Shown piece by piece: positions 11,701 to 64,000 of a stretch of 64,000 nucleotides of DNA (the first letter of the stretch is position 1; each line of letters begins with the position of its first letter). A program made the position numbers and the translations under genes. The notes under the pieces were generated by a model that searched no databases, was not told the origin of the DNA, and worked only from the letters and a program-made list of their open reading frames with translations. Source of the stretch: a virus; IMG/VR virus record IMGVR_UViG_3300021513_000001, positions 32,001-96,000 of that record; one strand, written 5' to 3'.

Positions 11701-14700
11701 ACAGCGCCCTTTAATAATAAACCATTTCCATCACATACAAACTTACTATCATCAAAAAACAAAATAGAGTCATCTAAATAAGAAGAAGGATCATTGAAAT
11801 CTACAACAATAATATATTTAGTAGCCAATTTTGCTCCATTTAAATAAATAGAAATTGAACCACCATCAAAAACAACAGCAACAACAGCTAACCTAAAAAC
11901 ATTCGAATGGGATATTGGAACGGACATGTCTACGGCAAGCCCATATATCCTCATTATAAGATGAATCCCACAACTTAAGTCATTAGAATTAATAGTTAAT
12001 ACAAAGTCAGAAGAGTTTTTAATTTCCATAGATCCATCTAAATCTTGAACAAACAAATACATTGAAAAAGAATTTAATTTTTTGAGATCTCCATAAAAAT
12101 AGACACTATATGCATCTTCTCCTGTTATAAATTGACTACATAAATCAGACCCTATTGCACTTTGGTTATATAACGGAAAATGATTATATATAAAATTATA
12201 ATAAAAACTCAAAACTTTTACACTTTCAACATGGGATAACCCAGATATAACTCTAACTCTATTAAATTCTGGACCATATCCATAATACCCTCGTGTAGAA
12301 TATGTAGATCCATCAACCACAGTAATATAATAACCATGTAGTCTATCAAAAATACTTCTATATACTATACATTTACATAATAATGCTGTTGAATCATGGT
12401 AACTCATATGACTATAATTATATAAATCACAATTATAAAAATTAATATTAGAAGTTGTATACAAAAGTATAACATGTGATCCTCCCGATCCGCCATCCCA
12501 AGGTAAAACATAACAATTATACATATTAAACACACCAGAACCGTTACATTTTGTAGTAGTACAATTAATAACAGTTATTCCTGCACTGGCGTTATCTATA
12601 CTTATATATATATCTGTAGAATGTCCAACTCCTATAATGCATATTTGTTTATCTGTTATTACATTATAATTACCTGGATAAAAATAAACCTTATCCCCAT
12701 GTTGAACTAAACCTGAAACATTAGAAAAAGAAGTATACTTTTGGTTTTTACCTACAAGATAAATCTTATAAAGAGAGGTTGGAACAAACAAATAATCAGA
12801 AAACAAACTTATCCTATTAAATTTAGAAACCTGCTGTATACCACCTACTACTTGTTCAAAAGTTTTAACAGAAATATTATTATCTACCAAATCAGAAGAT
12901 AAACAAAAACCAGAAGACGTAAGCTCGTAACAAGCCTTGTGTGATTGTCCTACGTAACTACCTGCAACTTTATCAATAAACAAGTTTGGTGGATAAGTAT
13001 TAAACCCAACACCGGTTTTAACAAGATTATCAGTACCATCAAGCGCAGTATATTTATAACCAACAGCTATAGAAGAAAAATTAACAAAATAATCATTTGC
13101 TTCAAAACCAAACAAACACCCAGAACCAACAGCATGCGGAAAATTTTTATTATAAAATATAAGCTCAAGACCTAAACAATCAGAAGAAAAAGAATAACTA
13201 CTATATATATTTGTTCCACTACAAGCATCAACATAACCAGTTAGAGTAATAACATCTAAAAATCTAGAAACACTAAAAATGTATTCAACAGTACCAGAAA
13301 TACCAGACATGCTGGTACTTATATCTCCATATAAAGAACTTGCTATTATATTACATCCAGAAGAACTTACCCAATCTGTTTTTATATAACACTCATTTCC
13401 AGAATAATCCCTTAAATATAGTTGTGAATTAAAAGGATAATAATTAATACCAGAAACAGACAAACTAAATTTATCTTCTAACATGTACTCAGAATACACA
13501 TATAAAACATCATCTAAAGCAACATGTATACAAGTTACTCCACTCGTTGTACAAACAGCAGTTCCTCCGTAATAATAAAAAGAAGAAGGCCTTATTTCTG
13601 TTGGTACTGTTTGATCCCAATTGCTATTTACATTTAATCTTATTCTTGAACACCTTGTTGGTGGTACTATTATAGTATGTCTAATTGGCCAAGAAGTGCC
13701 AGACAAAACAGGAGAAACATAATTGTTTAATACTATATTCCAACTGCTGTCATAATAAGCCAACACATCACAAGAAATACTGAACCCGTCTTCGGGATTT
13801 ATATAATCTGACGTAATATATACATCTACAGAATCAACAAAAGAAACCTCATTAAACTGTAACCTAAAATAATCACTATCTGTTAAAACATCCCCATAAT
13901 TACAAATACGTTCAGAAATATTACCATCAAACATTTTAGTAATACTACCAAAATTTGTATAAGTATCTCCACCGTTATAAATAGGTATCCACCCAGGCTG
14001 GTTACAAATATAAACACCGTAAGGATCACAGACTAATCTCCACCTCTCTATTATAAAACCACGTTCAAAATTATCACTTATACCTAAAAAACTATAATTA
14101 TTAATATTAAATATTCCACTAATAGAGACATCTTGATATGAGCTAAAGGAACATTCTAAATCATAAAAAGCACAATCATACAAAACTATTTTATTTGACA
14201 GAACATTACTACTTATGTTATAAAATAATTCATTATAACTATCATCCAAGTTATAATATTCAGGTAATGAATAATCAAAACATTTATTAGTTAAGGTTTT
14301 TATATTTTTTTGTGCCGTAGAAATATATACTTTATCTATAAAAGCCCACGTTTCACAATCGTTCTTTATAAAATATCTCATATAATCGTAATCAGAAGTA
14401 ATAACACCAGAAGCCAACACTCCTACATTAGATCCAGATATCAAAACATAAAAACCATCAAAATAAAAATATATTGAATCATTACTATTTATGTCCAAAC
14501 CAGAAAAAGTTGTCTCACCTATATATAAAATCCCACTACTATCAACTGCCGTACTATTTATATTTGGAAATACTGGTATAGACTCAACACCAAGTAAAAC
14601 CCCAAAACTCAAAGAATTCACCCAATCAATGTTAGAAAATTCTACAACACTGGCTGGACTAATAGGATCAAACACTTTTGAATAATTACGTATATATAAA

Positions 14701-27400: not shown

Positions 27401-30400
27401 TATCAAACCGATGTTTTACATAAACATCATTATAATAAGTATTATTTTTAAACACTGCTTTTAAAACTACTGAAGCTTCTCCACTAGAATAGTCGCTAAA
27501 ACCATCAAAATATACATCTATAATAAAAGCCCCATCTATCGAAAATCTTGAACGTAAACTTTCAGCACTTCCCAAATGCTCAAGCCAAACTCCGCCGCTA
27601 TCTACCTCATACGGAGAAGATATAATCCACTTATAGTCTAAAACACCTTCTTCAGAAAAATCAGTACTGTACTGATCATTAGATGTAAACTTATAAGCTA
27701 TTTCATTTTTAGATTTATAACCAACGAACTCATTAAAAAGATAATGGGCTGTTGTATATGCATTTTTAGAAAACAAAGAAAAATTATCATAAACATCATA
27801 ATAAGTAATATTGTCGTAACTATACATTAATGTGCACGGTTCGTATGAGCCTGTTTCACTAATATAATAAATAACAGCCCTATTAACACCACAATTACTA
27901 CCAAGATCCACCCCAACAGCAGACAAAACATCATCTCCACCCTTTTGTATAGAATGTGACAAATCATAATTTATAACTACGTTGTCATCAAGATAAGAAG
28001 TTTTTCCAGATAAAATACCAAAATATAAATCATCAGAATAAGAAACATACCCCTGCCGTATAGGAATAAGAACATCATCAATATAACACTTTATCTCAGT
28101 TACTTTTATACTTTTTGAAGATTCGTTTACAAACTTTAAATATCTTAAACTTATATTATTAAAATTATATACAAACTTCTTAACAGTATAATCTCTACAA
28201 AAAGTTAAACTTTTGTTAAAGTTGTCTAAAATAGTAGAATTGTCCAGAACATTACCAGAATACACATAACTTAATCCATCGTTTACAGTATACCAAATCT
28301 TTTTTCCAGAAACAACTTTAGACGCTTTAATCTCACAAGATATAAACTCGGCTATTATATTACCTTTAACATGCGGAGCATTAAAAATAGTTGAAATAGC
28401 TACTAATACCTCAGTATCAAATAAAGAAAAGGTTGTTAACTCATGCCATTTGTCACTATAAAAACAATAAAAAGTCCAAGCATTGTCACGCTTCTTTATT
28501 TTTAATCCAACATTTCTTCCTAAAACATTACTAAAATTATAATAAGTAGGATCAACTTGATTTTCTAACTTAAATTCTAAACCATACTCCGGACTGAGTT
28601 GAAACGAAGAATAAAATCTTAAATAATTATTGTAATTCCGATCACAACAAGCCAGCCCTATATATACAAAATCTTCTATATTGCCTACATAATTAAACCT
28701 CAGTTCTATATCTATATCATTATAAAACTCATTAACATTTATATAATTAAACCATCTTATCGCTTCATTTTTTAATGGTCTTAATTTTAACCCCACATCT
28801 ATATAAACAAATTCACCATCTTTACCAGGAACTAAATAATCATAAGGAGCGTACCAATCATCATAGACAGTAGTCTTAAAATTATAATATTTACTTACAA
28901 AAAAATTTTCTAAGTTAAGCAAATTTTTTAATGAATATGTATTATATTCACTATTTATATAATTACTAGAAACAAAATAAAACTCAGAATGTGTATACTT
29001 AGTAGGAACAAAACCTTTATGTACAATGTCGTTATCAAAATCATATTCATACACCAAACTGTCTAACAAGTCTGCAGTATAATCTAACAAATAACAATTT
29101 AATGGTTTAATTCTAGTATTATATATTGTTAAAACACCTTCTCCTGATTCGTTACTGGAGACAAAATAATCATCTGGAACAAAAGACGAATATACATTAA
29201 TATTATCAAGGTTAAAAACCCTGTCATTAGAAATAAGACAAACATTTATAACTAAACTTTTTATATGGGTACCTATATAAATATCTTTTTTATCGCCATT
29301 ATTATTTAAATCAAACATTACCATTTTAGAACAGTCTAAAAAACCACACACATCAACAACATAAGCTAACATATTACCTGTTTTTGTACATATTTCTATT
29401 TCAGAAAAACTTATATTTGGAAGATTCTTGTTATTATAAACAAAAACACCAACCCCTTTAGTTTTTACCTCATTTTTTATATCAAACTTCCAATTATCAA
29501 TTTGATATTCTGAAATTATAACATCTTCTATATTAGAAAAACTCGGAGAAGTTTTAGTATTATCCAAAATTTCTAATAAATAATTATCAAAACTTTCTTC
29601 TTCAGTGCTATATATTAAAACACTACATATATCTATTGCTACCGGAAACTCATAATAAAACAAAACACTTCCTGGTATAAAAGAACATGTATAATTATTA
29701 TACTCATATACATTAATTATATAATCATTCCAACTATATCTTAAAATATTTTTATTTTTTATTGATGTTAAATCTATAGGAGGACTATAATCATAATTAT
29801 CTAACTCTATTTCAGTAACATCTGCATAAAGTATATTGTCAGATAAACAATCTATACCTACAATCTCGCCAGGAATTTCTGTCACATTTCCTTGATCGTC
29901 TTTAACATTAAGTTGACAACCAAGTATTTTATAATTAAAGTTATTATTAAATATTATATTAAATTCTTTATCATAAGAATCGGAATACTCTAATAAAAAT
30001 GACAGTTTATCTACATAAGAGGTTTCATTATAAACAGCAAGTATTGGAATATCATTATTTGTCGGTGCTTTAAAATAAGCATAAAAAGAAACAGAAGAAA
30101 ATGAAGTTTCCTCTATATCACTTTTATTTATACTATCAGAATACCCAGAAACTACACCGTAATAATTTATAACAAAATCAGCCTTTCTAGATATACCTAT
30201 CTTTAAATTATAAAAACCTATTACATCTCCTCTATATACTCTACATACCCAATCTAGTATATGTTTTGACATCTTATTTGTTTCTGATAAAAAATAACTA
30301 TTAACTACCTCATAAACATCTTTATTTTTCCTATATATTAAAATTTTTCCACCGCCAGAAAGAGCTTTACAATAAATTTCAAAACAATTAAGATATCCAT

Positions 30401-50823: not shown

Positions 50824-51762
50824 TTATCCAGAATAATCTATTTGATTAGCTAATGACAAAATACCCCAAGTTAAAGCATCATCAACACTATTTAAACAAG
50901 AATTCGGAAAATATTCTGGATCATTATATCTAAGCTTTTGTACTTTAGATCCTTTAGCATAAGAATTTTGTATTCCGTTAAACCCATGCACACCGGCTGT
51001 TGCTACCTCTATAGAAGTCGATGTTCCAGACACCATTGTAAAATAATCACCAGGAATCTTATTACCACTAGCAGTTATACACAAAGAATCTCCAGCAACA
51101 GCATCCAACCCAGATTCAACATATAAAGTGCTAGTTCCAGCTGTATACGTGCTAGAAGTAACAACCTCACGAATATCCGTACCAGAAAGGCTTTTAGAAT
51201 CTATTGGAAGATCAAAACCCAAAACACCACTTGCTGTTCCAGACGGATCAACTTCAACAGAAGAAGCCGAAGCACCAGCTAAAGTCTTAGATATCGTACC
51301 TGATTTTATAACAAACCTGCTATTAGTAAAAGAACATCTGCAATTCTTATAACCAAGAGTTTTTCCAGCATCAACAGTCTCCATAGTAACTGCCCGTAAT
51401 TTTGTCTGAATATCAGATGCTACAGCATCACCAGTTAAATTTATACCCTCATCAAGCGTTATACTATAAAACTTACTAGCATTATCTATTTTAACTTTTA
51501 ACTCTTTATTGCCAGAATTTATAGTAAAAACAGCACCTTTAAACCCAGAACTTTTACACCAACCACACAAAAATTCTTGTATAAATATATCGTCTATTGT
51601 TGTTTTATTAACATAATCAGAATATGCATTTGTCCTACATGTAAGTACAAACTTTTCGTCACCTTCTGCACCAACAGGTACTATTTTTAACAAATCCAAA
51701 GTAACAGTTTTTGAATTCTCAGAATAACCTTCCAAATCATATACAGTAGCATTTATGGCCAT
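50824..51762 (-). CDS. 312-aa putative virion structural protein
   Basis: FTINSGNKELKVKIDN...ITLDEGINLTGDAVASDIQTKL matches FTIGPTNNILGINIDG...ITLTSGVNLDARFVAKDITEKM in the 511-aa protein. Confidence 0.8.
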   Translation of the reverse strand: MAINATVYDLEGYSENSKTVTLDLLKIVPVGAEGDEKFVLTCRTNAYSDYVNKTTIDDIFIQEFLCGWCKSSGFKGAVFTINSGNKELKVKIDNASKFYSITLDEGINLTGDAVASDIQTKLRAVTMETVDAGKTLGYKNCRCSFTNSRFVIKSGTISKTLAGASASSVEVDPSGTASGVLGFDLPIDSKSLSGTDIREVVTSSTYTAGTSTLYVESGLDAVAGDSLCITASGNKIPGDYFTMVSGTSTSIEVATAGVHGFNGIQNSYAKGSKVQKLRYNDPEYFPNSCLNSVDDALTWGILSLANQIDYSG

Positions 51763-51769
51763 TTTTTTT

Positions 51770-51936
51770 ACCGATGCTTTTTTGTTAACTTACGTTAACA
51801 AATGCACCACTCTCCTTTTTTTAGAATGATGGGGGCATCTCCCAAAGCTCGCAATAAAATATTGCGAGCGCCGTTGATATCTCTATCGATCCTGTTTCTT
51901 TTAAAATGTTAATGTATTAACAACAGTTAATTATCC
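51770..51936 (-). repeat. 167-bp structured element, copy 1 (candidate cis-regulatory leader RNA)
   Basis: Identical by my base-by-base reading to 52664-52830. Contains several hairpins and ends 7 nt before ATG 51762. Confidence 0.95.
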
Positions 51937-51953
51937 TCTTTTGTTAATTTTTT

Positions 51954-52259
51954 CTAAACTTCAAAATATCTTCTACCTATAAATTCAGTGGTATAATATG
52001 GACAATTATCGTCCATACATATCCACCCGCTTACTCTTCCTTTTTGATAAAATCTCATTCTTCCAAAAGTTTGTGTATGGTCTGCTTTTGGATACGAACC
52101 AGACACCGTACTTTGCGTAGAATACTTACATAATTTATATCTATACCCTGCCTTATTTGGATCAGATCCATCATTATACCTTTTATTCGTAGGTAAATTC
52201 CCACTACAAGTAGTACCAAATCTCTGCTCCCAAGTTAAAGCACAACGATTAAAAGACAT
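51954..52259 (-). CDS. 101-aa basic, Cys-containing protein (possibly metal-binding)
   Basis: Five Cys, including WICMDDNCPYY. Start overlaps the upstream stop. Lies between the two 167-bp repeats. Confidence 0.75.
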   Translation of the reverse strand: MSFNRCALTWEQRFGTTCSGNLPTNKRYNDGSDPNKAGYRYKLCKYSTQSTVSGSYPKADHTQTFGRMRFYQKGRVSGWICMDDNCPYYTTEFIGRRYFEV

Positions 52260-52659
52260 AACTCTCCCTTAAAGATGAAAACGTTCTTGCTGGGTAATTT
52301 AAATACATTACATGTATATCTTCCTCATGACAACTAGTATCTATAACTAAAAAATCATCACATAAAAATTTAGGAACTTTGCAAGAAGAGTCTATACTTA
52401 TTATAGCGTCCTTTAAATAAACAATATTACCTGCATATATAACATCGCCCCAACTTAATGTAGCTATATAATAATTTTTAAGAAATATGACGTACTGGTC
52501 CGTAAAATCTAACCTTATAGACTCATTACACGCTATCCTATTAGCTATACGCAAAGCCGGGCCAGAAAAATAAGCACCGTCTAGACAGGCCTTTAAATCT
52601 TTCCCTGTCTTAACATACCTAACATTTATCCAATGTAATTCTAAAATATACTTATCCAT
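52249..52659 (-). CDS. 136-aa hypothetical protein
   Basis: ATG 4 nt downstream of repeat copy 2. No motif recognised. Confidence 0.75.
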   Translation of the reverse strand: MDKYILELHWINVRYVKTGKDLKACLDGAYFSGPALRIANRIACNESIRLDFTDQYVIFLKNYYIATLSWGDVIYAGNIVYLKDAIISIDSSCKVPKFLCDDFLVIDTSCHEEDIHVMYLNYPARTFSSLRESYVF

Positions 52660-52663
52660 AAAA

Positions 52664-52830
52664 ACCGATGCTTTTTTGTTAACTTACGTTAACAAATGCA
52701 CCACTCTCCTTTTTTTAGAATGATGGGGGCATCTCCCAAAGCTCGCAATAAAATATTGCGAGCGCCGTTGATATCTCTATCGATCCTGTTTCTTTTAAAA
52801 TGTTAATGTATTAACAACAGTTAATTATCC
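52664..52830 (-). repeat. 167-bp structured element, copy 2
   Basis: Direct repeat of 51770-51936 at an offset of 894 bp. Fills nearly all the space between the 210-aa gene stop and ATG 52659. Confidence 0.95.
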
Positions 52831-52838
52831 ACACAAAC

Positions 52839-53471
52839 TTACAACCACAAAGGTTGGTGCTTAATAGTTACGTTAGCATTTGCTGTTTTCCCATTATCAA
52901 TAGCAGAAGGATTATGTCCAACAGCAGAAACTATACCATATGCTGTTTCATTGGCATTCCCAATACCAGGAAAACCAGCACTAACAGAGCCCTGAAAACC
53001 AGTAGCATCAATAGAACTAAAAACAACACCAGTAATATCATAATCTGTTGACTTTGTTCCCTCGGCACCACCACAAAGTACATAACTAGGGTGTGGCTCA
53101 GAAACCCACTGTTGTCCATTATATGTACATTGACCTGCACCCTGTGCACTACCCTTACTATAAGTATATCCAGTCATATAAAAGTCACCACTGGGGCCAG
53201 AAACAGCAGAACCGCACGCTGCAGGATTAACAGTACAGTTAAATTTAACTGTAGAATCTTCACAACCAGCGGCATTAACAATTTGAATTTCAGGACCACC
53301 ACCTCCATAAACAACCACAGAGAGTGTTTGAGTAAAATTCTTTATAGTATCATATGGCGTAAAACTACCCAACTGCCATAATCTTTGTACGTTAGGAGAC
53401 AAATTCCAATTAACAGATACTACCCCTGTAAATCCATCTACTGTTGTAGCCGACCCTATAATTACTGACAT
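52839..53471 (-). CDS. 210-aa tail-tube-like structural protein
   Basis: VVSVNWNLSPNVQRLWQLGSFTPY...FYMTGYTYS pattern resembles tail tube proteins. Lies near the tape-measure and hub genes. Confidence 0.5.
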   Translation of the reverse strand: MSVIIGSATTVDGFTGVVSVNWNLSPNVQRLWQLGSFTPYDTIKNFTQTLSVVVYGGGGPEIQIVNAAGCEDSTVKFNCTVNPAACGSAVSGPSGDFYMTGYTYSKGSAQGAGQCTYNGQQWVSEPHPSYVLCGGAEGTKSTDYDITGVVFSSIDATGFQGSVSAGFPGIGNANETAYGIVSAVGHNPSAIDNGKTANANVTIKHQPLWL

Positions 53472-53520
53472 TTTTTTATATCCGCCTTTATCTATTATTT
53501 CTAATTATAAAACATTAAGT

Positions 53521-57368: not shown

Positions 57369-60300
57369 TTATGTTTGTGAAGCAAATACACGTGCTGACC
57401 ATGCTAAATCTTTAGCTTCTGCTACTTCTTCTCGTAGTTCATTAATCGCATTAGTAAACTTAGCACCCATAGTCCCCAAATTAGTTTGAAGTTGAACAAG
57501 AGCACTATCGTGATCATCTAACTTTTTATTTATTAACTCAAATCCAGATTCCATTACCAAAACAGATGCTGTATTGTTAGCTACGTCTGTATCTAAATCT
57601 TCAACTAACCCTTTTAATTCTTTAATTGTTTCAGAACAACTAACTATTTCTTCTTTAAAAGCAATAAAATCAGTACTTTCTATTTCTTCTGTTTCTACTG
57701 GAACAGTATTTTTAATAATTTCAACATCTTCAGATAAAATTCTCGTCTTTTCAACTAATTCAGCTACTGTCTTCGAATCATTAGAAAGCTGATCTATGCT
57801 TTCAGATAATTCTTCTTTAACATTGTTTATCAAGTTTAATGCTTCCTCTTCAGAAATATATTCAACCACTTCTTTTTCTGCAGCTGCTGTCGGTCCTGAT
57901 TCTTCTTTAGCTACATCAATTGTATTTATTTTAGTAGAAAGTGTATCTAACGAGATGGCTGTTTTAGACGCAGATTCTCCCAAATCGTCTATTAAATCTT
58001 TTGAAGACTTTGATGCCTCACCAACACTATTCACGTTTTTTAAATTATCAGAAAGATCTACAAATAATTTATTAACATCAATAACTGATTCTTTTAACAC
58101 CTCTATTTCATCTTTTAAGTTAGATACTTCTATGTTTAACTTTTTGTTTTTCTTTAAAATTTCATCTGATTGCTTTACTTCTATATTTTTTTGACTATCT
58201 AGTTGAGCTTTTGGTTTCACTGCAAATTCTTTAATCTTATCTCTTTTAGTAGCAATCTCTTTACCTGCTTCTAGTACACTAGGTAAAAACGTTACATTTT
58301 TTTCTTGTTCCGGGTATGTAACAAACATTCCCTTTTTTTCCAAACTTTCCTTAATCTGTCTACGATTCTCCTCTTGAGAAAATTCTTGCCCAGGATACCT
58401 TACTGTAATTCCAGTCGTTTCAAAAAAACTTTTATATTTTTTTTGTCCTTCAGTTAATAAAGGCCGTTCATACGATGCGCCTACTTTATCTCTTTTATCA
58501 ACAATTATAGGTTGTGATTTAACATTTTCACTTCTATTTATAGCATCAATAATACTTGCCCCAACATTTTCACCAGAAATAATTAATTTTCCTATATTAT
58601 TTTTTATAGAATCCAAACGATCATTAGAAGGAGATATAGCACCCCTTATAGCTGTAGCATATTCTTCTGCCTGCACATCTCTAATCCTTTTTTCTTTAGC
58701 TTCCACCGCAACGCTTAAGTTTTTTTGTATTGCTTCTAAAGGCCCGCCCCTACCAATAAACGTACCAAAAGATCCTCCATATTTAGTAATATCCTCTCCT
58801 CTAGACGCTCTCTCCATTATATTATAAAGTTCCTTTGGATCAATTCCAGTATCTACTCCCTGTGCTCTCAAGCTTAAATTTTGACTATATAAATTTTTTG
58901 CAAGATCAAACTGCATACGCCTATCTGCTACCCTTTCTTGGGATAATTCTGACGTTCCTTGTCTTTTAGCCCATTTAGAAAAATCTATCTCTAAAGGCCT
59001 TATATTACGAGCACTCTCTATACCAGATAACCCTGTTTTTATAGAATCAATTATAGATTTCATCCCACTTACAGATTGCTGTAATGGTTCTAAAATCTTC
59101 CTTTTTTCTAACTCAAAAGTAGCACGCGCTTCCTTTTCTGCTTCATATACCTCAAGTAATTTTCTATTCCTTTCTTTTATTTCAGAAGGAACACGACCAA
59201 GCGTAGCTCTCAACTCGTTTTCTTCTCTTGTTATTTGATCTAATGATTTACCCCTCCCAGCAGCAATATCCATTCGAGTCTGTTGTCTAATATTTGGAAT
59301 ACGTAATTTTTCTGCTTCTTTTCTAGCCTTATCTTCTTCAACTAATGCCTTAGCTTGGTATTGTGAATAAAGTTTTTGTAGTTTTTCCAACCCCGGTGTT
59401 GTTTTATCAACAGCTTCTTCAGATTTTACATCAAATTCTGATCTTTTACCACTTGTACGTTCAACACCTTCTGCTGTTTTTGCAGTATTTTTTGCAATTT
59501 CATTTAAAACACTTATAACCGGCCCAAGCTCTACAGAACCTGTTTCTAAAGCACCCTCAATCATACTATTTAATCTTTCATTAGATATGCCTTGTTGTTT
59601 AAGAAAGTCAACCTGTCCCATAATACCAGCCATTATATCTGTTTTACTACGAACGGCTTTAACTTTTTCCAACTGTTTCAAATAAGAAATAGTATTTTCT
59701 CTATATTCTTGGTCTCTATTATATAATATCTCATGAGGACTATATCTAGCAGTTGTAGATACATCAACTCCTATAGGTAAAGCTTCACGATATAAAGGCC
59801 CACCTTTTACATTCAATCTTTTAGCCCTTGATTCAATAAGTTTTTGACTCTTTGCCGACTGCATATCTAAATTCTTAAAAGTAAATGAAAGATTTTCTAC
59901 ACTTTTAATAAGAGGATCAGTTACTTTAGTAAACAAAGTAAAACTATTTATTATATTTTCTAAACTTTTACCAGAGTTGATTAATTCATCATTTAAATTT
60001 TCTATTTTTTCTTTATTTTTATTAGCGCTTATTCCAATCTTTTCAAGTACTTCCTCCATAACTTTTTCCGGTGTTGCAATTTTGTTTGTAATAACACCAG
60101 TTTCAATTTTACTCTCCTTTTGTTGTCTCTTTTCTTCTTGTAACCCCTCAAAACGATTTTCAAGTAAATCAATAAACGTTCTTACTATTTTTTCATTATT
60201 TTTAATTCCAACACCAAAACCCATTGTGCTAACTTCTTTACCGGCTATTTTTTCTTGTTCTGGTGTAAGTGTAGATGTTGGGTTGTATGGTAAATTTTTT

Positions 60301-63300
60301 GCAGTAGCAACGGCTGTAACAAGACCTGCCGGACTAGGAATCATAATAGAAGGTAAAAGAACTTTTGTAAAATCAATCAGAGATTCACTATTTTTTAAAC
60401 TTTCTTGTACTTCAGCTGGTGATTTTTTAGTACTTTTGACAAGCGTAAGCGCTTCTTTAGAAGTAGCCTGTTCATAAATAGCCGACACATCATTAGGTGA
60501 TAATTCCTTATACTTAGAACTTTGTTGTGCTGCTGTAACTAAATCACCAATACCGGGTATAGAAGAACCCAACTCAGTAACAGCTCTTATAAATAACTTG
60601 TTACCTTCCTTTTCGCCCAAAGTTTCTTTCAGTGCAGCAAGATATTCTTTAGTACCCTTTATATCCCTATTAGAAATAAAACGTCCTATATCTGCTTTAA
60701 CCTTTAAACTTGCACCCCTTACAGCAATATCTCTATTAATCTCCCCTGTTTCTTTCATAGCCTGGGATAAAGCAGTTAATCCTGTAGGCTTATTACTCTC
60801 AAGAATAGTTTTAATATCACCAAGAGTATTTGCTGTTTTTTGTTCCAATTTAGTTTGTTTTTGTGTTTCAGTTAATAAAACAGCAGTTGATAACTCACCA
60901 GTCTTTAATATGTTTTCTGAAACGGCTGCAAATTCTTTTTTATCAAACCCTTTCTGTTTAGATAAATCTTTTATATATTTTAAATCAACTTCAGCCGTAA
61001 CAATTTTTTCCCCTCTTTTAACATATTTCATATATTCTAATTCTTTTACATTATATTCTTTAGCTTTTTTTGCATATTCAGGTATAATAAAAGCCCTCTC
61101 AGCAATAGGTAATTCGCTCATTTTTCTCATATTAATTTTTGGAGTAGGTATCAATTCCATACCAGCTAACGGTCCAGTTAAACGCTTCATAGTTCTTGTT
61201 CTAAATTTTTGTACAAGTTCCTGTTTTTCGTAAGTCACATCAATTTGTTCCAAAGCTTTCTTAAGATTCATAATAACACGCGCATCTTGTATAGCTACAT
61301 TTGAAAGACCTGTTAAACTATTAATTAATTCGCTAATATTTTTAGATGTCTCTTCAGCAACATCACCGTGTTTTTCATTAACAGCAAGCGCAGCTTTTTG
61401 TGCTTTACGAACTTCTTCTTGACGTTTAACATATTCATTAATAAAGCCCATAGTTTCTTTAGAAAAAACCTTATAAGCATTATTTTGAATCAATATAGGA
61501 GTTTTAATTTGATAACGGTACATACTACCTAACTCTAATTTTCCTTCTTTTATTGGTTTATACATACCAGCTTCAGCACCAACAAAATAACGAGATATTT
61601 TTCTAAGACGAACCTCTACATCAGTTAACATACCTACAGCATTTATTACACCAATAAATTTATCAGAAATAACTGCTGTTTTCTTAAAATTTTCTAAAGT
61701 ATCTGTAACAAATTTAAGCCCTTTTTCTTGATTTTTACTAACTTCAACAGAATACTTAACCCATTTTTCACTAGCATCGCCTACACCTTTTTCAAAAACA
61801 GAAACCATATCGCCTAAATAACCTGAACCTTTCTTAAACATAAAAACATCTTTAGCTATAGCTTCTTCTAGTACGTTACGACGCTCCTCTTCAGTACTAA
61901 CACCTCTAAAAGGAATACCCTGTTCCATTGCAGCTTGTTTTGTAAGTTCTGCAGAAGCCCTTATATTAACTCCACTAAGCCTTTGAGCAAAAGACGCTTG
62001 AATATCTTCAACAGATATTCCCTTATAAAACTGTTTATTTTTTTGCTGCTCTAGTTCAGCTAATGCCCTGCCTGTTGCTCCAAATGCAGCCTTGCCTGCA
62101 AGCTCTGGAGTCATACCAGGACCAGCCATTGTAAAGAAATCTCTTTTGATTTCTAAAAACTTATCATTAAACTCTGTCATAATATTAAGATGTTCTTTTT
62201 GTAATGCTGACCATCTTTTAAATCGATCCTCTTGTCTGCTGTACTCTTCTGGATTAATCTCCTTTAAACGTGTTAATGGAGCACGTATGATCTCCCCCTT
62301 CTGTCCAGCTTCATAACGCATTTTATTAATTTTTTCTGAAGAACGAATCATTCGTTCAAACAATGTTCTTCTTTTATCAGCATACTTTTCAAGAGATTTA
62401 AAACCAGTCATCTCTCCTAAATTACCAATACCTTCTCTAAACATGTATTGAAGTTTTTTCCAAAAACCTTTTATTTTTACAGCTTTCATCAAATCATCTA
62501 ATTCTTCTTTTTCAATATGTAATTTTAAATTAATCCTAGCATTGGCAGCAATCTCCTCAAGTTTAGCTATAACAGAATCTAACTTATCAGTCGATGAAAC
62601 AATAGATTTACCAAATTTATCAAACCCAATAAAACCTTCAGAAGTTAAAGAAACAACAGCAGTAGCATATTCTCTAATGCTTTCTATCTGCTCTTTCTTC
62701 ATTAATAATGGACTCTTGTACGATCTCCCTTTTACCTGACTAGCAATCTGTTCTTCAGTTAATTCTTCTAAAGCTTTTATTCTTCCACCTCTAATTTCTA
62801 CTCTTGAACGTATCATCTTAACATTAGATATAGATTTTATTTTTTCCTCAACAACATCCAAAGCCTTTTTATAATCTTTAGTTCTATCCTCAGCAGAAGC
62901 AAAAGTTTTAGTCACAGCTTTATTAAACAAATACATTCCAACACCAAGTGACGCTATAACACTAATAAAAGTACCCAATGCCCCTAAAGAAGTCACTAAC
63001 CCTAAAACAGAAAGAGATGCTTTACCTGTAGCTTTTACAAGAGAACTCATAGACTTTACAGATTTCTCTATCATAGCACCAGAAAATGCAAAGGAAGCAC
63101 CAGAAACTAAACCCCTTCCAATACCAGACACTCTTGTTCCAACTTTTGGTAATAATGCCTTTGGAGACATCTGCCTAACCTTTTCAAAAACCTCTCTTCC
63201 TTTTTCTTGCTTCCCTCCAAATAGCGCCCCAACAAGTTCTCTTGGTGTTCTTCGTTTTCTTTTAGCACCACCAATACTAGGCCCCAACAATCCAAACATT

Positions 63301-64000
63301 GACAAATCAAAATATTTACCAAGAGCAGTTGCACCTAAATAAGCACTCGTACCAATAGTTGCTAAAGCACCACCATGTATGCCAGCAATTGCTTCAGTTA
63401 CCGCTTTCAAAGAATCTGTAAGAGCTTTTAACCCAGTTAAAATAGGCCCGCTAGCAGAAATAGCCAAAGCATTAAAAGAAGCCTTTAATTGAGCCGATTT
63501 CTTAGCTAAAGTCTCCATAACTAATTTATTTTCTTTTTCTGCCGACCCAACCGAATTAATACTAACAGCGCTAGCAGCCAAAGCTCTGTCATAATGCTCC
63601 ATTAAAACCATAAGAGCATTATAATGTCGTATACCACCCATAGCTTGTGCTGTTGCTAATTTTTGAGCTCTAGTTAAACCAACCCATTTTTTAGCTAAAT
63701 CATCTAAAACATCAGAACCTCTCCTAAGTCTTCCACCCTCAATAGTCTTAACACCAATAGCTGTTAATGCTTTTGGTGCTTTCTGTGTACCCATTCTTGA
63801 AAAAATAAATTTAAGAGATGTACCCACCTCCTTACCCGTTTGTCTTGTAGCTTCTCCAATTGCAGTAATAATACCATTAAGCTTATGAACACCTATACCC
63901 ATTACCTTAGCAGCAGTACCAGCTTTTTTAAAACCATCAGCTAAATCCTTTGCTGTTATAGCAAATTTATTTTCAACTTCATTCCAAGAATCAAGAATAG
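57369..64000 (-). CDS. phage tail tape measure protein (5' end outside the window, >2,200 aa)
   Basis: The frame stays open upstream of the tracked ATG 63902: ILDSWNEVENKFAITAKDLADGFKKAGTAAKVMG...AIGEATRQTGKEVGTSLKFIFSRM is a TP901/SPbeta-type TMP core. Hydrophobic Gly/Ala segments and long K/E-rich helical coiled-coil follow. Confidence 0.9.
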   Translation of the reverse strand, partial: ILDSWNEVENKFAITAKDLADGFKKAGTAAKVMGIGVHKLNGIITAIGEATRQTGKEVGTSLKFIFSRMGTQKAPKALTAIGVKTIEGGRLRRGSDVLDDLAKKWVGLTRAQKLATAQAMGGIRHYNALMVLMEHYDRALAASAVSINSVGSAEKENKLVMETLAKKSAQLKASFNALAISASGPILTGLKALTDSLKAVTEAIAGIHGGALATIGTSAYLGATALGKYFDLSMFGLLGPSIGGAKRKRRTPRELVGALFGGKQEKGREVFEKVRQMSPKALLPKVGTRVSGIGRGLVSGASFAFSGAMIEKSVKSMSSLVKATGKASLSVLGLVTSLGALGTFISVIASLGVGMYLFNKAVTKTFASAEDRTKDYKKALDVVEEKIKSISNVKMIRSRVEIRGGRIKALEELTEEQIASQVKGRSYKSPLLMKKEQIESIREYATAVVSLTSEGFIGFDKFGKSIVSSTDKLDSVIAKLEEIAANARINLKLHIEKEELDDLMKAVKIKGFWKKLQYMFREGIGNLGEMTGFKSLEKYADKRRTLFERMIRSSEKINKMRYEAGQKGEIIRAPLTRLKEINPEEYSRQEDRFKRWSALQKEHLNIMTEFNDKFLEIKRDFFTMAGPGMTPELAGKAAFGATGRALAELEQQKNKQFYKGISVEDIQASFAQRLSGVNIRASAELTKQAAMEQGIPFRGVSTEEERRNVLEEAIAKDVFMFKKGSGYLGDMVSVFEKGVGDASEKWVKYSVEVSKNQEKGLKFVTDTLENFKKTAVISDKFIGVINAVGMLTDVEVRLRKISRYFVGAEAGMYKPIKEGKLELGSMYRYQIKTPILIQNNAYKVFSKETMGFINEYVKRQEEVRKAQKAALAVNEKHGDVAEETSKNISELINSLTGLSNVAIQDARVIMNLKKALEQIDVTYEKQELVQKFRTRTMKRLTGPLAGMELIPTPKINMRKMSELPIAERAFIIPEYAKKAKEYNVKELEYMKYVKRGEKIVTAEVDLKYIKDLSKQKGFDKKEFAAVSENILKTGELSTAVLLTETQKQTKLEQKTANTLGDIKTILESNKPTGLTALSQAMKETGEINRDIAVRGASLKVKADIGRFISNRDIKGTKEYLAALKETLGEKEGNKLFIRAVTELGSSIPGIGDLVTAAQQSSKYKELSPNDVSAIYEQATSKEALTLVKSTKKSPAEVQESLKNSESLIDFTKVLLPSIMIPSPAGLVTAVATAKNLPYNPTSTLTPEQEKIAGKEVSTMGFGVGIKNNEKIVRTFIDLLENRFEGLQEEKRQQKESKIETGVITNKIATPEKVMEEVLEKIGISANKNKEKIENLNDELINSGKSLENIINSFTLFTKVTDPLIKSVENLSFTFKNLDMQSAKSQKLIESRAKRLNVKGGPLYREALPIGVDVSTTARYSPHEILYNRDQEYRENTISYLKQLEKVKAVRSKTDIMAGIMGQVDFLKQQGISNERLNSMIEGALETGSVELGPVISVLNEIAKNTAKTAEGVERTSGKRSEFDVKSEEAVDKTTPGLEKLQKLYSQYQAKALVEEDKARKEAEKLRIPNIRQQTRMDIAAGRGKSLDQITREENELRATLGRVPSEIKERNRKLLEVYEAEKEARATFELEKRKILEPLQQSVSGMKSIIDSIKTGLSGIESARNIRPLEIDFSKWAKRQGTSELSQERVADRRMQFDLAKNLYSQNLSLRAQGVDTGIDPKELYNIMERASRGEDITKYGGSFGTFIGRGGPLEAIQKNLSVAVEAKEKRIRDVQAEEYATAIRGAISPSNDRLDSIKNNIGKLIISGENVGASIIDAINRSENVKSQPIIVDKRDKVGASYERPLLTEGQKKYKSFFETTGITVRYPGQEFSQEENRRQIKESLEKKGMFVTYPEQEKNVTFLPSVLEAGKEIATKRDKIKEFAVKPKAQLDSQKNIEVKQSDEILKKNKKLNIEVSNLKDEIEVLKESVIDVNKLFVDLSDNLKNVNSVGEASKSSKDLIDDLGESASKTAISLDTLSTKINTIDVAKEESGPTAAAEKEVVEYISEEEALNLINNVKEELSESIDQLSNDSKTVAELVEKTRILSEDVEIIKNTVPVETEEIESTDFIAFKEEIVSCSETIKELKGLVEDLDTDVANNTASVLVMESGFELINKKLDDHDSALVQLQTNLGTMGAKFTNAINELREEVAEAKDLAWSARVFASQT

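What the first reader, a model, noticed from the sequence alone, without database searches (positions are those of the whole stretch)
51770..52830. Perfectly duplicated 167-nt multi-hairpin leader with switch-like alternative pairing over the Shine-Dalgarno site
Seen: two identical copies (51770-51936, 52664-52830), each ending 4-7 nt before a minus-strand ATG. In transcript sense the element holds TGTTAA-TACA-TTAACA, GATA-GAGA-TATC (GNRA loop), GCTCGCAATA-TTT-TATTGCGAGC and TTTGTTAAC-GTAA-GTTAACAAA (GNRA loop), the last closed by TGGTGC/GCATCG. The segment AGAGTGGTG, which overlaps the only AGGAG, can instead pair with upstream CATCATTCT (9 bp, two G-U). That helix excludes the TGGTGC/GCATCG helix, and an upstream GATGC could then capture the freed GCATC. 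Inference: an uncharacterised cis-regulatory RNA (riboswitch-like, or a protein-binding translational operator) setting the stoichiometry of virion proteins. I could not match it by eye to SAM-I, TPP, glycine, cobalamin, c-di-GMP, c-di-AMP, ZTP or fluoride riboswitches, or to hammerhead ribozymes. Caveat: two stems (GTTGATA/TATCGAT, GGGGG/CTCCC) pair better on the plus strand, so a ssDNA-hairpin or non-autonomous mobile element is an alternative.
Basis: partly seen in the sequence, partly recalled or inferred. Interest (0 to 1): 0.82.

Follow-up and report, generated by a model that had tools for sequence, protein, structure and literature searches.

The report
Gene-less IS607 mini-transposons with TnpB guide-RNA scaffold
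The two identical 167-base "leaders" are two insertions of a gutted jumping gene (IS607 type) that keeps only its ends and the guide-RNA scaffold of the RNA-guided nuclease TnpB; each landed in the ribosome-binding site of a phage gene, which is a clean example of a known kind of element and not a new riboswitch.

Summary
Window 51770-51936 and 52664-52830 are 100% identical, and the described hairpins and alternative pairings are present. The repeat belongs to a family, though. The 114-kb phage contig has 7 co-oriented copies: 3 full, 1 attached to a tnpB gene at the contig end, and 3 truncated.

A metagenome contig that overlaps our contig end (L017) carries the parent. It is an IS607-type unit with a MerR-HTH serine recombinase (TnpA) and TnpB.

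The 167-nt element is that unit's ~30-nt left end joined to its last ~137 nt, which hold TnpB codons 496-529 and the right end. The "Shine-Dalgarno" GGAG is codons K-G-E.

GAUGC/GCAUC is the pseudoknot and CAUCAUUCU/AGAGUGGUG is stem-loop 2. Across 14 TnpB loci from phages and cyanobacteria, the pseudoknot is paired in 100% of cells and 3 of its 5 pairs covary.

The ends carry GG and the scaffold ends in UCGG, as published for IS607. Reconstructed empty sites place each insertion at the GG of the native ribosome-binding site. Related phages keep the same gene order without the element.

Verdict: a new member of a known kind. This scan has already found similar IS607/TnpB mini-elements in ribosome-binding sites of other phages. 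One open question is whether the truncated remnants now serve as hairpin-bridged ribosome-binding sites.

The parts
51771..51936 (-). Mini-IS607 copy 1 (gene-less derivative), bounded by GG at both ends; the exact repeat runs one base further, to 51770
52665..52830 (-). Mini-IS607 copy 2, 100% identical to copy 1
51907..51936 (-). Left end (LE) of copy 1, containing the palindrome TGTTAA-TACA-TTAACA; matches the LE of the full IS in L017 (36/43 including flank). Copy 2 equivalent: 52801-52830
51795..51899 (-). Remnant of the tnpB 3' end (aa 496-529 plus the TAA stop; 97% aa identity to L017 TnpB), including the RuvC-III motif DRDINGARNI. It has no start codon and is non-coding here. Copy 2: 52689-52793
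51847..51869 (-). Copy 2: 52741-52763
   Evidence: (I4)
51835..51839 (-). Pseudoknot 5' strand GAUGC, in the loop of the small GGG/CCC hairpin (the nexus-like stem-loop). Copy 2: 52729-52733
   Evidence: architecture as in 10.1101/2023.11.20.567912
51805..51831 (-). Copy 2: 52699-52725
51781..51802 (-). Stem-loop 3 (UUUGUUAAC-GUAA-GUUAACAAA); it contains the tnpB stop codon and shares the TGTTAA..TTAACA palindrome with the LE. Copy 2: 52675-52696
   Evidence: (I3)
51771..51777 (-). Pseudoknot 3' strand GCAUC followed by the terminal GG, so the scaffold ends ...UCGG. Copy 2: 52665-52671
51751..51770 (-). Predicted guide of copy 1: the 20 nt just outside the right end, spanning the start codon of the 312-aa gene. 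Inferred, not shown
   Evidence: position relative to the right end; the omegaRNA guide rule
52645..52664 (-). Predicted guide of copy 2, spanning the start codon of the 136-aa gene. Inferred
   Evidence: as above
50824..51762 (-). 312-aa gene (unknown function) downstream of copy 1. Its native ribosome-binding site AAGAGG now lies at the LE junction, 167 nt away
51954..52659 (-). 136-aa and 101-aa genes between the two copies. They are syntenic in related phages, so they are resident genes and not cargo
52839..53471 (-). 210-aa gene upstream of copy 2

Best explanation
Each 167-nt copy is an insertion of a gene-less, internally deleted derivative of an IS607-family insertion sequence that lives in the same phage. 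The parent (LE - tnpA serine recombinase - tnpB RNA-guided nuclease - RE) is complete in the overlapping contig L017 and is cut by the right end of our own contig.

SHOWN. The mini-element is about 30 nt of left end joined to the last ~137 nt of the parent, which hold the final 34 tnpB codons plus the right end. That part encodes a structure shared with distant TnpB loci: a hairpin in the RuvC-III codons, a small hairpin whose loop forms a 5-bp pseudoknot with the scaffold's 3' end, two further stem-loops, and a terminal ...UCGG. One deletion derivative has spread, because four loci share the identical deletion junction. The ends carry GG, with no inverted terminal repeats and no target duplication.

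INFERRED. (1) TnpA from a full copy mobilises the mini-element in trans. It recombines at a GG inside purine-rich, Shine-Dalgarno-like sequence, and the polarity of that GG fixes the orientation to gene sense. This explains why copies sit a few nt before start codons and all point the same way. (2) Read-through transcription from the upstream phage gene produces scaffold plus about 16-20 nt of flank, which is the start region of the next gene, as an omegaRNA. (3) TnpB from a full copy binds this omegaRNA in trans. It cuts element-free alleles (LE-flank motif xRGG followed by the guide match) in sister or co-infecting genomes. Recombinational repair then copies the element in (homing or retention). 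The occupied site is spared because it presents TCGG in place of the target-adjacent motif.

My odds: identity as an IS607-derived mini-element with an omegaRNA scaffold, about 0.9; past mobilisation as a unit, about 0.85; omegaRNA still working today, about 0.5.
For: Family and placement. There are 7 co-oriented copies in the contig. Six lie within 4-19 nt of a start codon.

Parent element. PF07282 (TnpB zinc ribbon) hits over its cut-off immediately 5' of copy c114098, with faint hits inside both 167-nt copies. L017 has TnpA with MerR HTH plus Resolvase domains. It also has TnpB with HTH_OrfB_IS605, OrfB_IS605 and TNB domains, whose frame runs through the element to a TAA in the last hairpin. 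tblastn finds TnpB aa 496-529 at 97% identity in both window copies. The element's 5' 30 nt match the IS left end and its remaining part is 94% identical to the IS 3' end. The homologous loci all have a serine-recombinase tnpA directly upstream of tnpB.

RNA structure. On 14 TnpB loci at 35-52% protein identity, 89.7% of cells are paired, against 37-44% when the partner is slid. Twelve pairs change on both sides, and 0 of 500 shuffles reach the observed value. The pseudoknot is 100% paired with 3 of 5 pairs compensatory. In 12 of 14 sequences the inter-pseudoknot segment folds on its own into two stem-loops. Substitutions among copies are G-U-compatible only in gene sense.

Literature. IS607 has GG at its termini and target, no TSD and no TIR (PMC6188088). 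The IS607 omegaRNA has consecutive stem-loops with a nexus-to-3'-end pseudoknot, and its scaffold ends UCGG. TnpA_S and TnpB share the target motif (10.1101/2023.11.20.567912). [quoted passage not shown] Gene-less PATE-like IS605 elements that encode omegaRNAs used in trans are known (PMC10055086).

Target sites. Reconstructed empty sites are AAGAGG|TAAAAAAAATG, TAAAGG|ATTTAATTATG and AGAAGG|CTTATTATG. In L022, L024 and L025 the homologous right end also stops at ATCGG, 6-10 nt before an ATG. Related phages L035 and L036 keep the order g210-g136-g101-g312 and have a plain AGGAGG 7-8 nt before the g312 start. Only 25% of sense-strand intergenic GGs lie 3-20 nt before a start, yet 6 of 7 copies do. 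So the target is more specific than GG alone, or selection acts on placement.
Against: There are no expression data.

Only about 30 nt of the left end survive. For IS1535, left-end positions 21-54 and beyond were needed for paired-end complexes. Present-day mobility is therefore not assured, although the shared deletion junction at four loci shows past spread.

The 5' limit of a functional scaffold in this clade is unknown. The ISFba1-type scaffold is 187 nt, whereas at most ~137 nt are retained here.

A local helix (UGGUGC/GCAUCG) competes with the pseudoknot and itself shows compensatory change in a truncated copy.

The native motif at copy 2 (GTGTGG) is a poor Shine-Dalgarno or TAM-like sequence. 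Copy c114098 is not next to a start codon, with about 190 nt of non-coding sequence downstream. Gene starts used in the statistics are longest-ORF guesses.
Confidence: 0.9

Rival explanations
1. Exapted split ribosome-binding site. The right-end terminal ~50 nt is an A-rich tract plus GGAG, then a 15-bp hairpin, then 4-11 nt to the AUG. In this reading it works as a T4 gene 38/25-type translation initiation region, where the hairpin brings the distant GGAG to within 8-11 nt of the start codon. It would replace the native site that the insertion displaced. This would be a second function layered on the transposon origin, and it fits the truncated remnants best.
For: Genes behind the copies have no GGAG-type motif in the 40 nt before the ATG, although many other genes in the genome have AGGAG at -10 to -14. 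All truncated copies retain at least the GGAG plus hairpin, and no shorter remnants were found. The one copy whose upstream GGAG has decayed (c107844) has its own AGGAGG 7 nt before the ATG. The outer helix is kept by compensatory changes in truncated copies that have lost the pseudoknot partner (GGUGC/GCAUC to AAUGU/ACAUU and GGUGU/GCACU). The inner stem is 99% paired and all its one-sided changes give G-U. T4 precedent: spacing of 22 reduced to 5 nt and 27 reduced to 11 nt (PMC3014915).
Against: GGAG, the hairpin and the G-U pattern are all explained already by TnpB codons (K-G-E) and omegaRNA constraints. The divergence among remnants may have arisen while they were still active IS subfamilies. 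BLAST-type detection is biased against very short remnants. The shuffle control on the 12-copy alignment shows no covariation beyond relatedness. A 42-nt insert between the Shine-Dalgarno site and the AUG is longer than in the T4 cases. There are no expression data.
Confidence: 0.25
2. Dead relics. The copies are stranded leftovers of IS607 activity with no current activity of any kind. They do not transpose, make no working guide RNA and play no role in translation; they are merely tolerated between genes.
For: The left end is very short at ~30 nt. Truncated copies have clearly lost the pseudoknot partner and stem-loop 2. Follow-ups of similar mini-elements elsewhere in this scan mostly judged them relics (unchecked notes).
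Against: Two copies are 100% identical and a third is 92% identical. All share the same deletion junction at different loci, which points to recent spread as a unit. The scaffold from the RuvC-III hairpin to UCGG is intact, and every covarying pair is formed in the full copies. A TnpB with intact RuvC motifs (IDPG......FET..., DRD) is encoded in the same phage.
Confidence: 0.3
3. One reading: a riboswitch-like or operator-type cis-regulatory leader. Ligand or protein binding toggles two folds to expose or hide the Shine-Dalgarno site, and this tunes virion protein levels.
For: Mutually exclusive pairings do exist. The 3' strand GCAUC can pair with GAUGC (the pseudoknot) or with the local GGUGC, and AGAGUGGUG can pair with CAUCAUUCU. 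The element lies in 5' UTR position.
Against: The sequence is homologous to tnpB coding sequence and IS607 ends. The 'alternative' pairings are the conserved omegaRNA architecture, also found in cyanobacterial IS607 copies that are not gene leaders. There is no Rfam match. Downstream genes are functionally unrelated. Orthologous genes in related phages lack the element and have plain AGGAGG sites.
Confidence: 0.03
4. Assembly artefact or simple tandem duplication. One of the two copies, or the 894-bp unit, arose from mis-assembly of a repeat or from a local duplication of a gene cassette together with its leader.
For: Metagenome contigs of this phage do break or branch at the element. Our contig ends inside an IS copy, and L017 shares 234 nt with it and then diverges right after the right end. 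L010 and L014 differ by a 137-nt deletion at a copy.
Against: The sequences between and beside the copies are unique. The genes between them (g136, g101) and around them (g210, g312) occur in the same order in two related phages, so nothing but the element is duplicated. Each copy sits at a different gene's start with a different flank.
Confidence: 0.03

Closest known systems
IS607-family insertion sequences with TnpB and omegaRNA (e.g. the C. botulinum IS607 elements/IStrons of Zedaveinyte et al., 10.1101/2023.11.20.567912; H. pylori IS607 and IS1535, PMC6188088)
   Same: The parent in L017 has an N-terminal MerR-type HTH serine recombinase TnpA followed by TnpB. It has GG at both termini and at the target, no inverted terminal repeats and no target-site duplication. 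Its omegaRNA overlaps the tnpB 3' end and right end, has consecutive stem-loops with a pseudoknot to the scaffold's 3' end, and ends ...UCGG. It inserts next to G-rich, Shine-Dalgarno-like motifs.
   Different: The window copies carry no genes: they are ~30 nt of left end plus ~137 nt of right-end side. There is no group I intron in the element. The host replicon is a large uncultivated phage. The target-adjacent motif appears to be xRGG (GAGG, AAGG, GTGG), not the TGGG determined for Cbo, and it is untested.
PATE-like gene-less IS200/IS605 derivatives that encode omegaRNAs used in trans (Geobacillus stearothermophilus; Meers et al., PMC10055086)
   Same: These are minimal non-autonomous elements that keep only the transposon ends and the omegaRNA. 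They are presumed to depend on TnpA and TnpB supplied in trans by full copies in the same genome.
   Different: They belong to a different transposon family and use different chemistry: a Y1/HUH single-strand 'peel and paste' with AT-rich TAMs, against a serine recombinase acting on dsDNA at GG here. The present element has no subterminal ssDNA guide hairpins of the IS605 type.
ISFba1-type IS607 TnpB guided by RAGATH-18-derived reRNA (Ren et al., PMC11061315)
   Same: IS607 TnpB, a guide RNA encoded at the right end, pseudoknots essential to the scaffold, and a Shine-Dalgarno-like TAM (5'-AGGAG).
   Different: No RAGATH-18 match, even at E <= 10, in the window copies or in the full IS. The scaffold here is much shorter than 187 nt.
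Split ribosome-binding sites of T4 genes 38 and 25 (Nivinskas et al. 1999; Malys and Nivinskas 2009; reviewed in PMC3014915)
   Same: A Shine-Dalgarno motif far upstream of the AUG (about 50 nt here) with a stable intervening hairpin. The hairpin would shorten the effective spacing to 8-11 nt.
   Different: Here the arrangement is a by-product of a transposon right end. The hairpin insert is about twice as long. No functional evidence exists.

Membership tests
IS607 family (parent element and its derivative) | Serine-recombinase TnpA with an N-terminal MerR-like HTH domain | tested here: met
   L017 7345-7935(-): PF00239 Resolvase 4.7e-17 and PF00376 MerR 4e-08. tnpA homologues lie directly upstream of tnpB in 9 related loci. 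It is absent from the 167-nt copies themselves, which are non-autonomous.
IS607 family (parent element and its derivative) | Accessory tnpB (RuvC-type RNA-guided nuclease) downstream of tnpA | tested here: met
   PF07282 1.6e-14 and PF12323 2.4e-08; PF01385 scores just under its cut-off at 28.5 bits. The last 34 codons are retained in both window copies at 97% aa identity.
IS607 family (parent element and its derivative) | GG at both termini and at the target; no target-site duplication; no terminal inverted repeats | tested here: met
   All full copies end ...GCATCGG. The left-end junction is GG in 4 of 5 (L014 has GA). The flanks share no direct repeat, and the ends are not inverted repeats of each other. 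The rule is from PMC6188088 and PMC13565253.
IS607 family (parent element and its derivative) | Mobility: the same unit at different loci, and sites without it | tested here: inconclusive
   Four loci share the identical deletion junction, and orthologous junctions in related phages lack the element. However, no exact empty allele of this phage could be looked for.
TnpB omegaRNA (guide-RNA scaffold) | Encoded across the tnpB 3' end and right end, in gene sense, with the guide taken from the flank | tested here: met
   Position shown. The strand is shown by G-U-only substitutions and covariation. The guide is inferred from position only.
TnpB omegaRNA (guide-RNA scaffold) | Consecutive stem-loops, with a pseudoknot between the first (nexus) loop and the scaffold's 3' end; IS607 scaffolds end UCGG | tested here: met
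   The pseudoknot is 100% paired in 14 loci, with 3 of 5 pairs compensatory. Two further stem-loops fold independently in 12 of 14.
TnpB omegaRNA (guide-RNA scaffold) | Transcribed, processed and bound by TnpB; directs TAM-dependent DNA cleavage | not testable with these tools
RAGATH-18-type IS607 reRNA | Match to the Rfam RAGATH-18 covariance model | tested here: not met
   No match at E <= 10 in window 51000-53500 or in L017 6100-8200.
MITE in the strict sense | Terminal inverted repeats and target-site duplication | tested here: not met
   The ends are not inverted repeats and there is no duplication. 'Mini-IS607' or 'PATE-like' is the better label.
Riboswitch / known cis-regulatory RNA families | Match to a curated family; conserved leader position in orthologues | tested here: not met
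   Rfam gives only a chance hit, SSRC8, at 17 bits against a 80-bit cut-off. Orthologous genes in L035 and L036 have no such leader.
Split (hairpin-bridged) ribosome-binding site, T4 gene 38/25 type | A distant Shine-Dalgarno site, a stable intervening hairpin, and short effective spacing | tested here: met
   The sequence layout is GGAG + 2 nt + hairpin + 6-9 nt + ATG, giving 8-11 nt effective spacing. This is layout only.
Split (hairpin-bridged) ribosome-binding site, T4 gene 38/25 type | The hairpin enhances translation initiation | not testable with these tools
   Needs reporter fusions with compensatory mutations.

The most novel reading that the evidence does not exclude
The right end of this IS607 clade doubles as a portable translation-initiation module. 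Because the element lands in the GG of a gene's Shine-Dalgarno site, it carries its own A-rich GGAG (codons K-G-E of TnpB). It also carries a hairpin that can fold in two ways: with the pseudoknot (guide-RNA form) or with the local outer helix (mRNA form, GGAG exposed and brought 8-11 nt from the AUG). On this reading the same ~50 nt would decide between 'make a guide' and 'translate the host gene'. After the transposon decays, this piece would be kept by selection as a hairpin-bridged ribosome-binding site in front of at least three genes of this contig (clamp-like 363 aa, 126 aa, 244 aa) and four or more in sister contigs.
Probability: 0.2. Interest if true: 0.6.

Novelty: new member of a known kind. 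Interest (0 to 1): 0.35.

Why it matters
This removes a false lead: there is no new riboswitch class here. It also gives a tidy natural example of guide-RNA-only satellites of a TnpB transposon inside a large phage. The autonomous parent sits in the same genome, the scaffold is intact and supported by covariation, and the insertion sites are precisely reconstructable inside ribosome-binding sites.

Gene-less omegaRNA elements are documented for IS605 (PATEs). In my limited literature search I found no description of IS607-derived ones. In phages they could act as homing or gene-drive elements against element-free co-infecting genomes.

The system is small and fully specified: TnpA of 196 aa, TnpB of about 380 aa and a 167-nt satellite. 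It could be used to test trans-mobilisation, trans-guiding and the cost of splitting a Shine-Dalgarno site from its start codon. The TnpB clade also links phage copies to cyanobacterial IS607 copies.

Tried and rejected
1. My first working model was a repeated promoter/leader cassette like the T4 PeSLs, with a terminator-like hairpin. The consensus scans found no terminator, and promoter-like sites were at the shuffle level. I dropped the model once the tnpB frame was seen.

2. A promoter plus 5'-stabiliser hairpin (-35-like TTGnnA, -10-like TAAGAA). Those 'boxes' are TnpB codons (L-G-D / L-K-K). Rejected.

3. Insertion of the element into a cold-shock gene, suggested by L010. L010 is a 137-nt deletion variant of L014, not an insertion.

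4. A 'cassette' carried between the two copies, or a composite transposon. Rejected, because g136 and g101 are syntenic in L035 and L036.

5. IS200/IS605 or ssDNA-hairpin element. The parent's transposase is a serine recombinase, and PF01385 alone gave no hit in the contig.

6. blastn of the element against 50,697 phage records found no match.

7. The pattern hits L012 and L013 look like chance or very remote matches.

8. A search for remnants shorter than 40 nt found none beyond the seven copies.

Consequently there is no read-level test of the assembly, of empty sites or of transcription.

10. The shuffle control on the 12 paralogous copies alone had no power. The covariation evidence comes from the 14 distant TnpB loci.
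Full report
**1. The observation**

The window holds an exact 167-nt direct repeat at 51770-51936 and 52664-52830. All neighbouring genes are on the minus strand. In gene sense the copies end 7 nt and 4 nt before the ATGs of a 312-aa and a 136-aa ORF. The 201-nt RNA folds better than shuffled controls on both strands (z = -3.9 and -3.5), as expected for palindromic stems. Folding energy alone therefore does not identify the functional strand.

**2. It is a family, not a duplication**

The window is bases 32001-96000 of a 114,332-bp IMG/VR phage contig. The contig has 30% G+C, is about 54% complete by CheckV's estimate, and carries nearly all its genes on one strand. BLAST and nhmmer find seven co-oriented copies, given here in contig coordinates:
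- the two exact ones (83770 and 84664);
- a third full-length one at 14581 (92% identical);
- a 144-nt one at 114098, running into the contig end;
- three fragments at about 19972, 27746 and 107844, which keep only the start-codon-proximal 40-75 nt.

The genes behind the copies include a glycosyltransferase and a sliding-clamp-like protein. So the set is not a virion regulon. Further copies occur in two IMG/VR contigs and five metagenome contigs. Apart from contig-end overlaps, these share nothing else with our contig at the DNA level.

**3. First model, and why I abandoned it**

The conserved core reads: A-rich tract, GGAG, a 15-bp interrupted hairpin, then 4-11 nt, then ATG. There is no other Shine-Dalgarno motif before the ATG, although the genome otherwise uses AGGAG at -10 to -14. 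That looked like the hairpin-bridged ribosome-binding sites of T4 genes 38 and 25 (PMC3014915).

On 12 paralogous copies the hairpin is 93% paired, against 28-55% when the partner is slid. The unpaired outer-stem cells come from a one-column shift in two rows that carry an extra A. All one-sided inner-stem changes give G-U in gene sense.

**4. The parent element**

PF07282, the TnpB zinc-ribbon domain, hits above its cut-off at contig 114186-114332. That is on the gene strand, immediately 5' of copy c114098. Both 167-nt copies give faint hits to the last 12 positions of the same domain.

Contig L017 is 100% identical to the last 234 nt of our contig and continues beyond it. It carries two genes of a complete unit:
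- a 196-aa TnpA with MerR HTH and Resolvase domains;
- a TnpB with HTH_OrfB_IS605, OrfB_IS605 and TNB domains.

The TnpB frame runs through the element. It reads ...NRIDRDINGARNILLRALGDAPIILKKGEWCIC and stops at a TAA inside the last hairpin.
- the GATA-GAGA-TATC and GCTCGCAATA/TATTGCGAGC stems lie in the RuvC-III motif codons;
- the GGAG is codons K-G-E.

tblastn finds TnpB residues 496-529 at 97% identity in both window copies. The first ~30 nt of the element match the left end of the L017 unit. The rest is 94% identical to its 3' end, and there is microhomology at the deletion point. Four copies at four different loci (two in the window, c14581 and L014) share exactly this junction. So one deletion derivative has spread as a unit.

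**5. Family assignment**

According to Chen et al. (PMC6188088) and a 2026 review (PMC13565253), IS607 elements have these features:
- a serine recombinase with an N-terminal DNA-binding domain;
- GG at both termini and at the target;
- no terminal inverted repeats and no target-site duplication.

All of these hold here. Zedaveinyte et al. (10.1101/2023.11.20.567912) add three points. IS607 omegaRNA scaffolds end in UCGG. They consist of consecutive stem-loops whose first loop forms a pseudoknot with the scaffold's 3' end. TnpA and TnpB recognise the same G-rich motif. Our right end reads ...GCAUCGG.

**6. The RNA structure, tested on independent sequences**

TnpB relatives at 35-52% identity were fetched from five other viral contigs and from eight genome contigs, seven of them cyanobacterial (Brasilonema, Prochloron, Limnoraphis and others). 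All of those checked have a serine-recombinase tnpA directly upstream. I aligned the stretch from the D-R-D codons to the right end for 14 loci and counted pairs:
- 89.7% of cells are paired, against 37-44% in the slid controls;
- 12 pairs change on both sides;
- 0 of 500 shuffles reach the observed score.

The 5-bp long-range pairing is paired in all 14 sequences, and 3 of its 5 pairs are compensatory. The observed versions are GAUGC/GCAUC (ours), GAUAC/GUAUC, GAUUC/GGAUC and GACGG/CCGUC.

Folding the segment between the two pseudoknot strands separately for each sequence gives two consecutive stem-loops in 12 of 14.

The 'switch' is therefore the native fold of a TnpB guide-RNA scaffold. Rfam has no model that matches it, RAGATH-18 included. 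So this clade is not of the ISFba1 type (PMC11061315).

**7. Why the copies sit in front of start codons, all in one direction**

Joining left and right flanks at the GG reconstructs three pre-insertion sites:
- AAGAGG|TAAAAAAAATG (copy 1);
- TAAAGG|ATTTAATTATG (c14581);
- AGAAGG|CTTATTATG (L017).

In each, the GG is the 3' part of a Shine-Dalgarno-like motif 7-9 nt before the ATG. Copy 2 is weaker (GTGTGG|TTTTTATG). In the unrelated phage contigs L022, L024 and L025, the right end of the homologous IS also stops at ATCGG, 6-10 nt before an ATG. In two of these the junction forms GGAG or GGAGG.

The two related phages L035 and L036 have the same gene order: g210, g136, g101, g312. They have a plain AGGAGG 7-8 nt before the g312 start and no element. 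So the two window copies are independent insertions before two resident genes, not a duplicated cassette.

In this contig only 2.7% of the DNA is intergenic. Sense-oriented GGs outnumber antisense ones 123 to 30 there, and 25% of the sense GGs lie 3-20 nt before a start. Six of seven copies do lie there. A binomial calculation of my own from these numbers gives about 0.001. The preference therefore goes beyond GG alone. It fits a Shine-Dalgarno-like target or TAM, selection, or both. Gene starts in this count are longest-ORF guesses.

**8. Mechanism (inferred)**

- TnpA from a full copy moves the mini-element in trans to GG in purine-rich sites. The polarity of the GG sets the orientation.
- Read-through transcripts give scaffold plus the first ~16-20 nt of flank as guide. 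That flank is the start-codon region of the next gene.
- TnpB from a full copy, whose RuvC motifs are intact in the sequence, uses this guide to cut element-free alleles in sister or co-infecting genomes. Repair then copies the element in.
- The occupied site is protected because it presents TCGG.

This is the published logic for IS607/IS605 transferred to this case. None of it was observed here.

**9. What remains open**

The three truncated copies in this contig, and four in sister contigs, have lost the pseudoknot partner and stem-loop 2. They keep GGAG, the hairpin and a local outer helix with compensatory changes. The only copy with a decayed GGAG has its own AGGAGG next to the ATG. That pattern fits exaptation as a split ribosome-binding site with effective spacing of 8-11 nt. 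It can also be explained by inheritance from diverged, formerly active IS subfamilies and by detection bias. I give it about 0.2-0.25.

**10. Limits**

No reads could be examined. The assembly, empty alleles and transcription are therefore untested. Contigs of this phage do break or branch at IS copies.

**11. Standing**

This is a known kind of element: an IS607/TnpB unit with a gene-less, omegaRNA-bearing derivative analogous to IS605 PATEs. This scan has already reported similar IS607 or TnpB mini-elements in ribosome-binding sites of other phages (unchecked notes, not used as evidence). The case is clean and complete, but it is not a new class.

Noticed in passing
L005:1588-1602 (contig 27838-27852, minus strand); also contig 65-79, 2312-2326, 15061-15075, 20466-20480, 24400-24414: Six co-oriented intergenic matches to a sigma-54-like GG-N8-TTGCA/G motif (several as GGCA-N7-TTGCA). 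One lies about 17 nt upstream of the truncated copy c27746, so that remnant's GGAG would sit near the 5' end of a transcript made from it.
   Followed up: partly
L017:8481-9551 (minus strand): A second TnpB-like ORF (356 aa; TNB domain 3.7e-23, only 28% identical to the IS607 TnpB) lies just upstream of the IS607 left end. It has no adjacent tnpA and no recognisable copy of this right end.
   Followed up: no
L010:2430-2600 versus L014:7864-8002: Two assemblies of the same locus differ by a 137-nt deletion. It removes the 3' end of a cold-shock-protein gene together with the left end of a mini-element copy, which is a population-level rearrangement at the element.
   Followed up: partly
contig 114099-114332 (L004:1502-1735) versus L017:6258-6491: Our contig ends inside tnpB. 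L017 is identical for 234 nt and then diverges exactly after the right-end GG. Either the full IS sits at two or more loci, or the assemblies branch at the repeat. In our contig this right end is followed by about 190 nt of non-coding DNA and not by a start codon.
   Followed up: partly
window 51937-51965 (minus strand), left flank of copy 1: The flank ...AAGTTTAGAAAAAATTAACAAAAGAGG resembles the 3' end of the element's own right end (AAGTTAACAAAAAAGCATCGG). It may be an older decayed right end, or a sign that TnpA prefers end-like targets.
   Followed up: no
L035:4976-6055 and L036:4976-6061: Related phages have about 1 kb of extra sequence between the g312 and g162 orthologues that is absent from this window. 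This is an indel in an otherwise syntenic block.
   Followed up: no
window 57369-64000 and beyond (contig 89369-106060, minus strand): A single 5,563-codon ORF, and several others of 1,600-3,300 codons in the window. These are giant genes typical of this phage; other notes of the scan discuss them.
   Followed up: no
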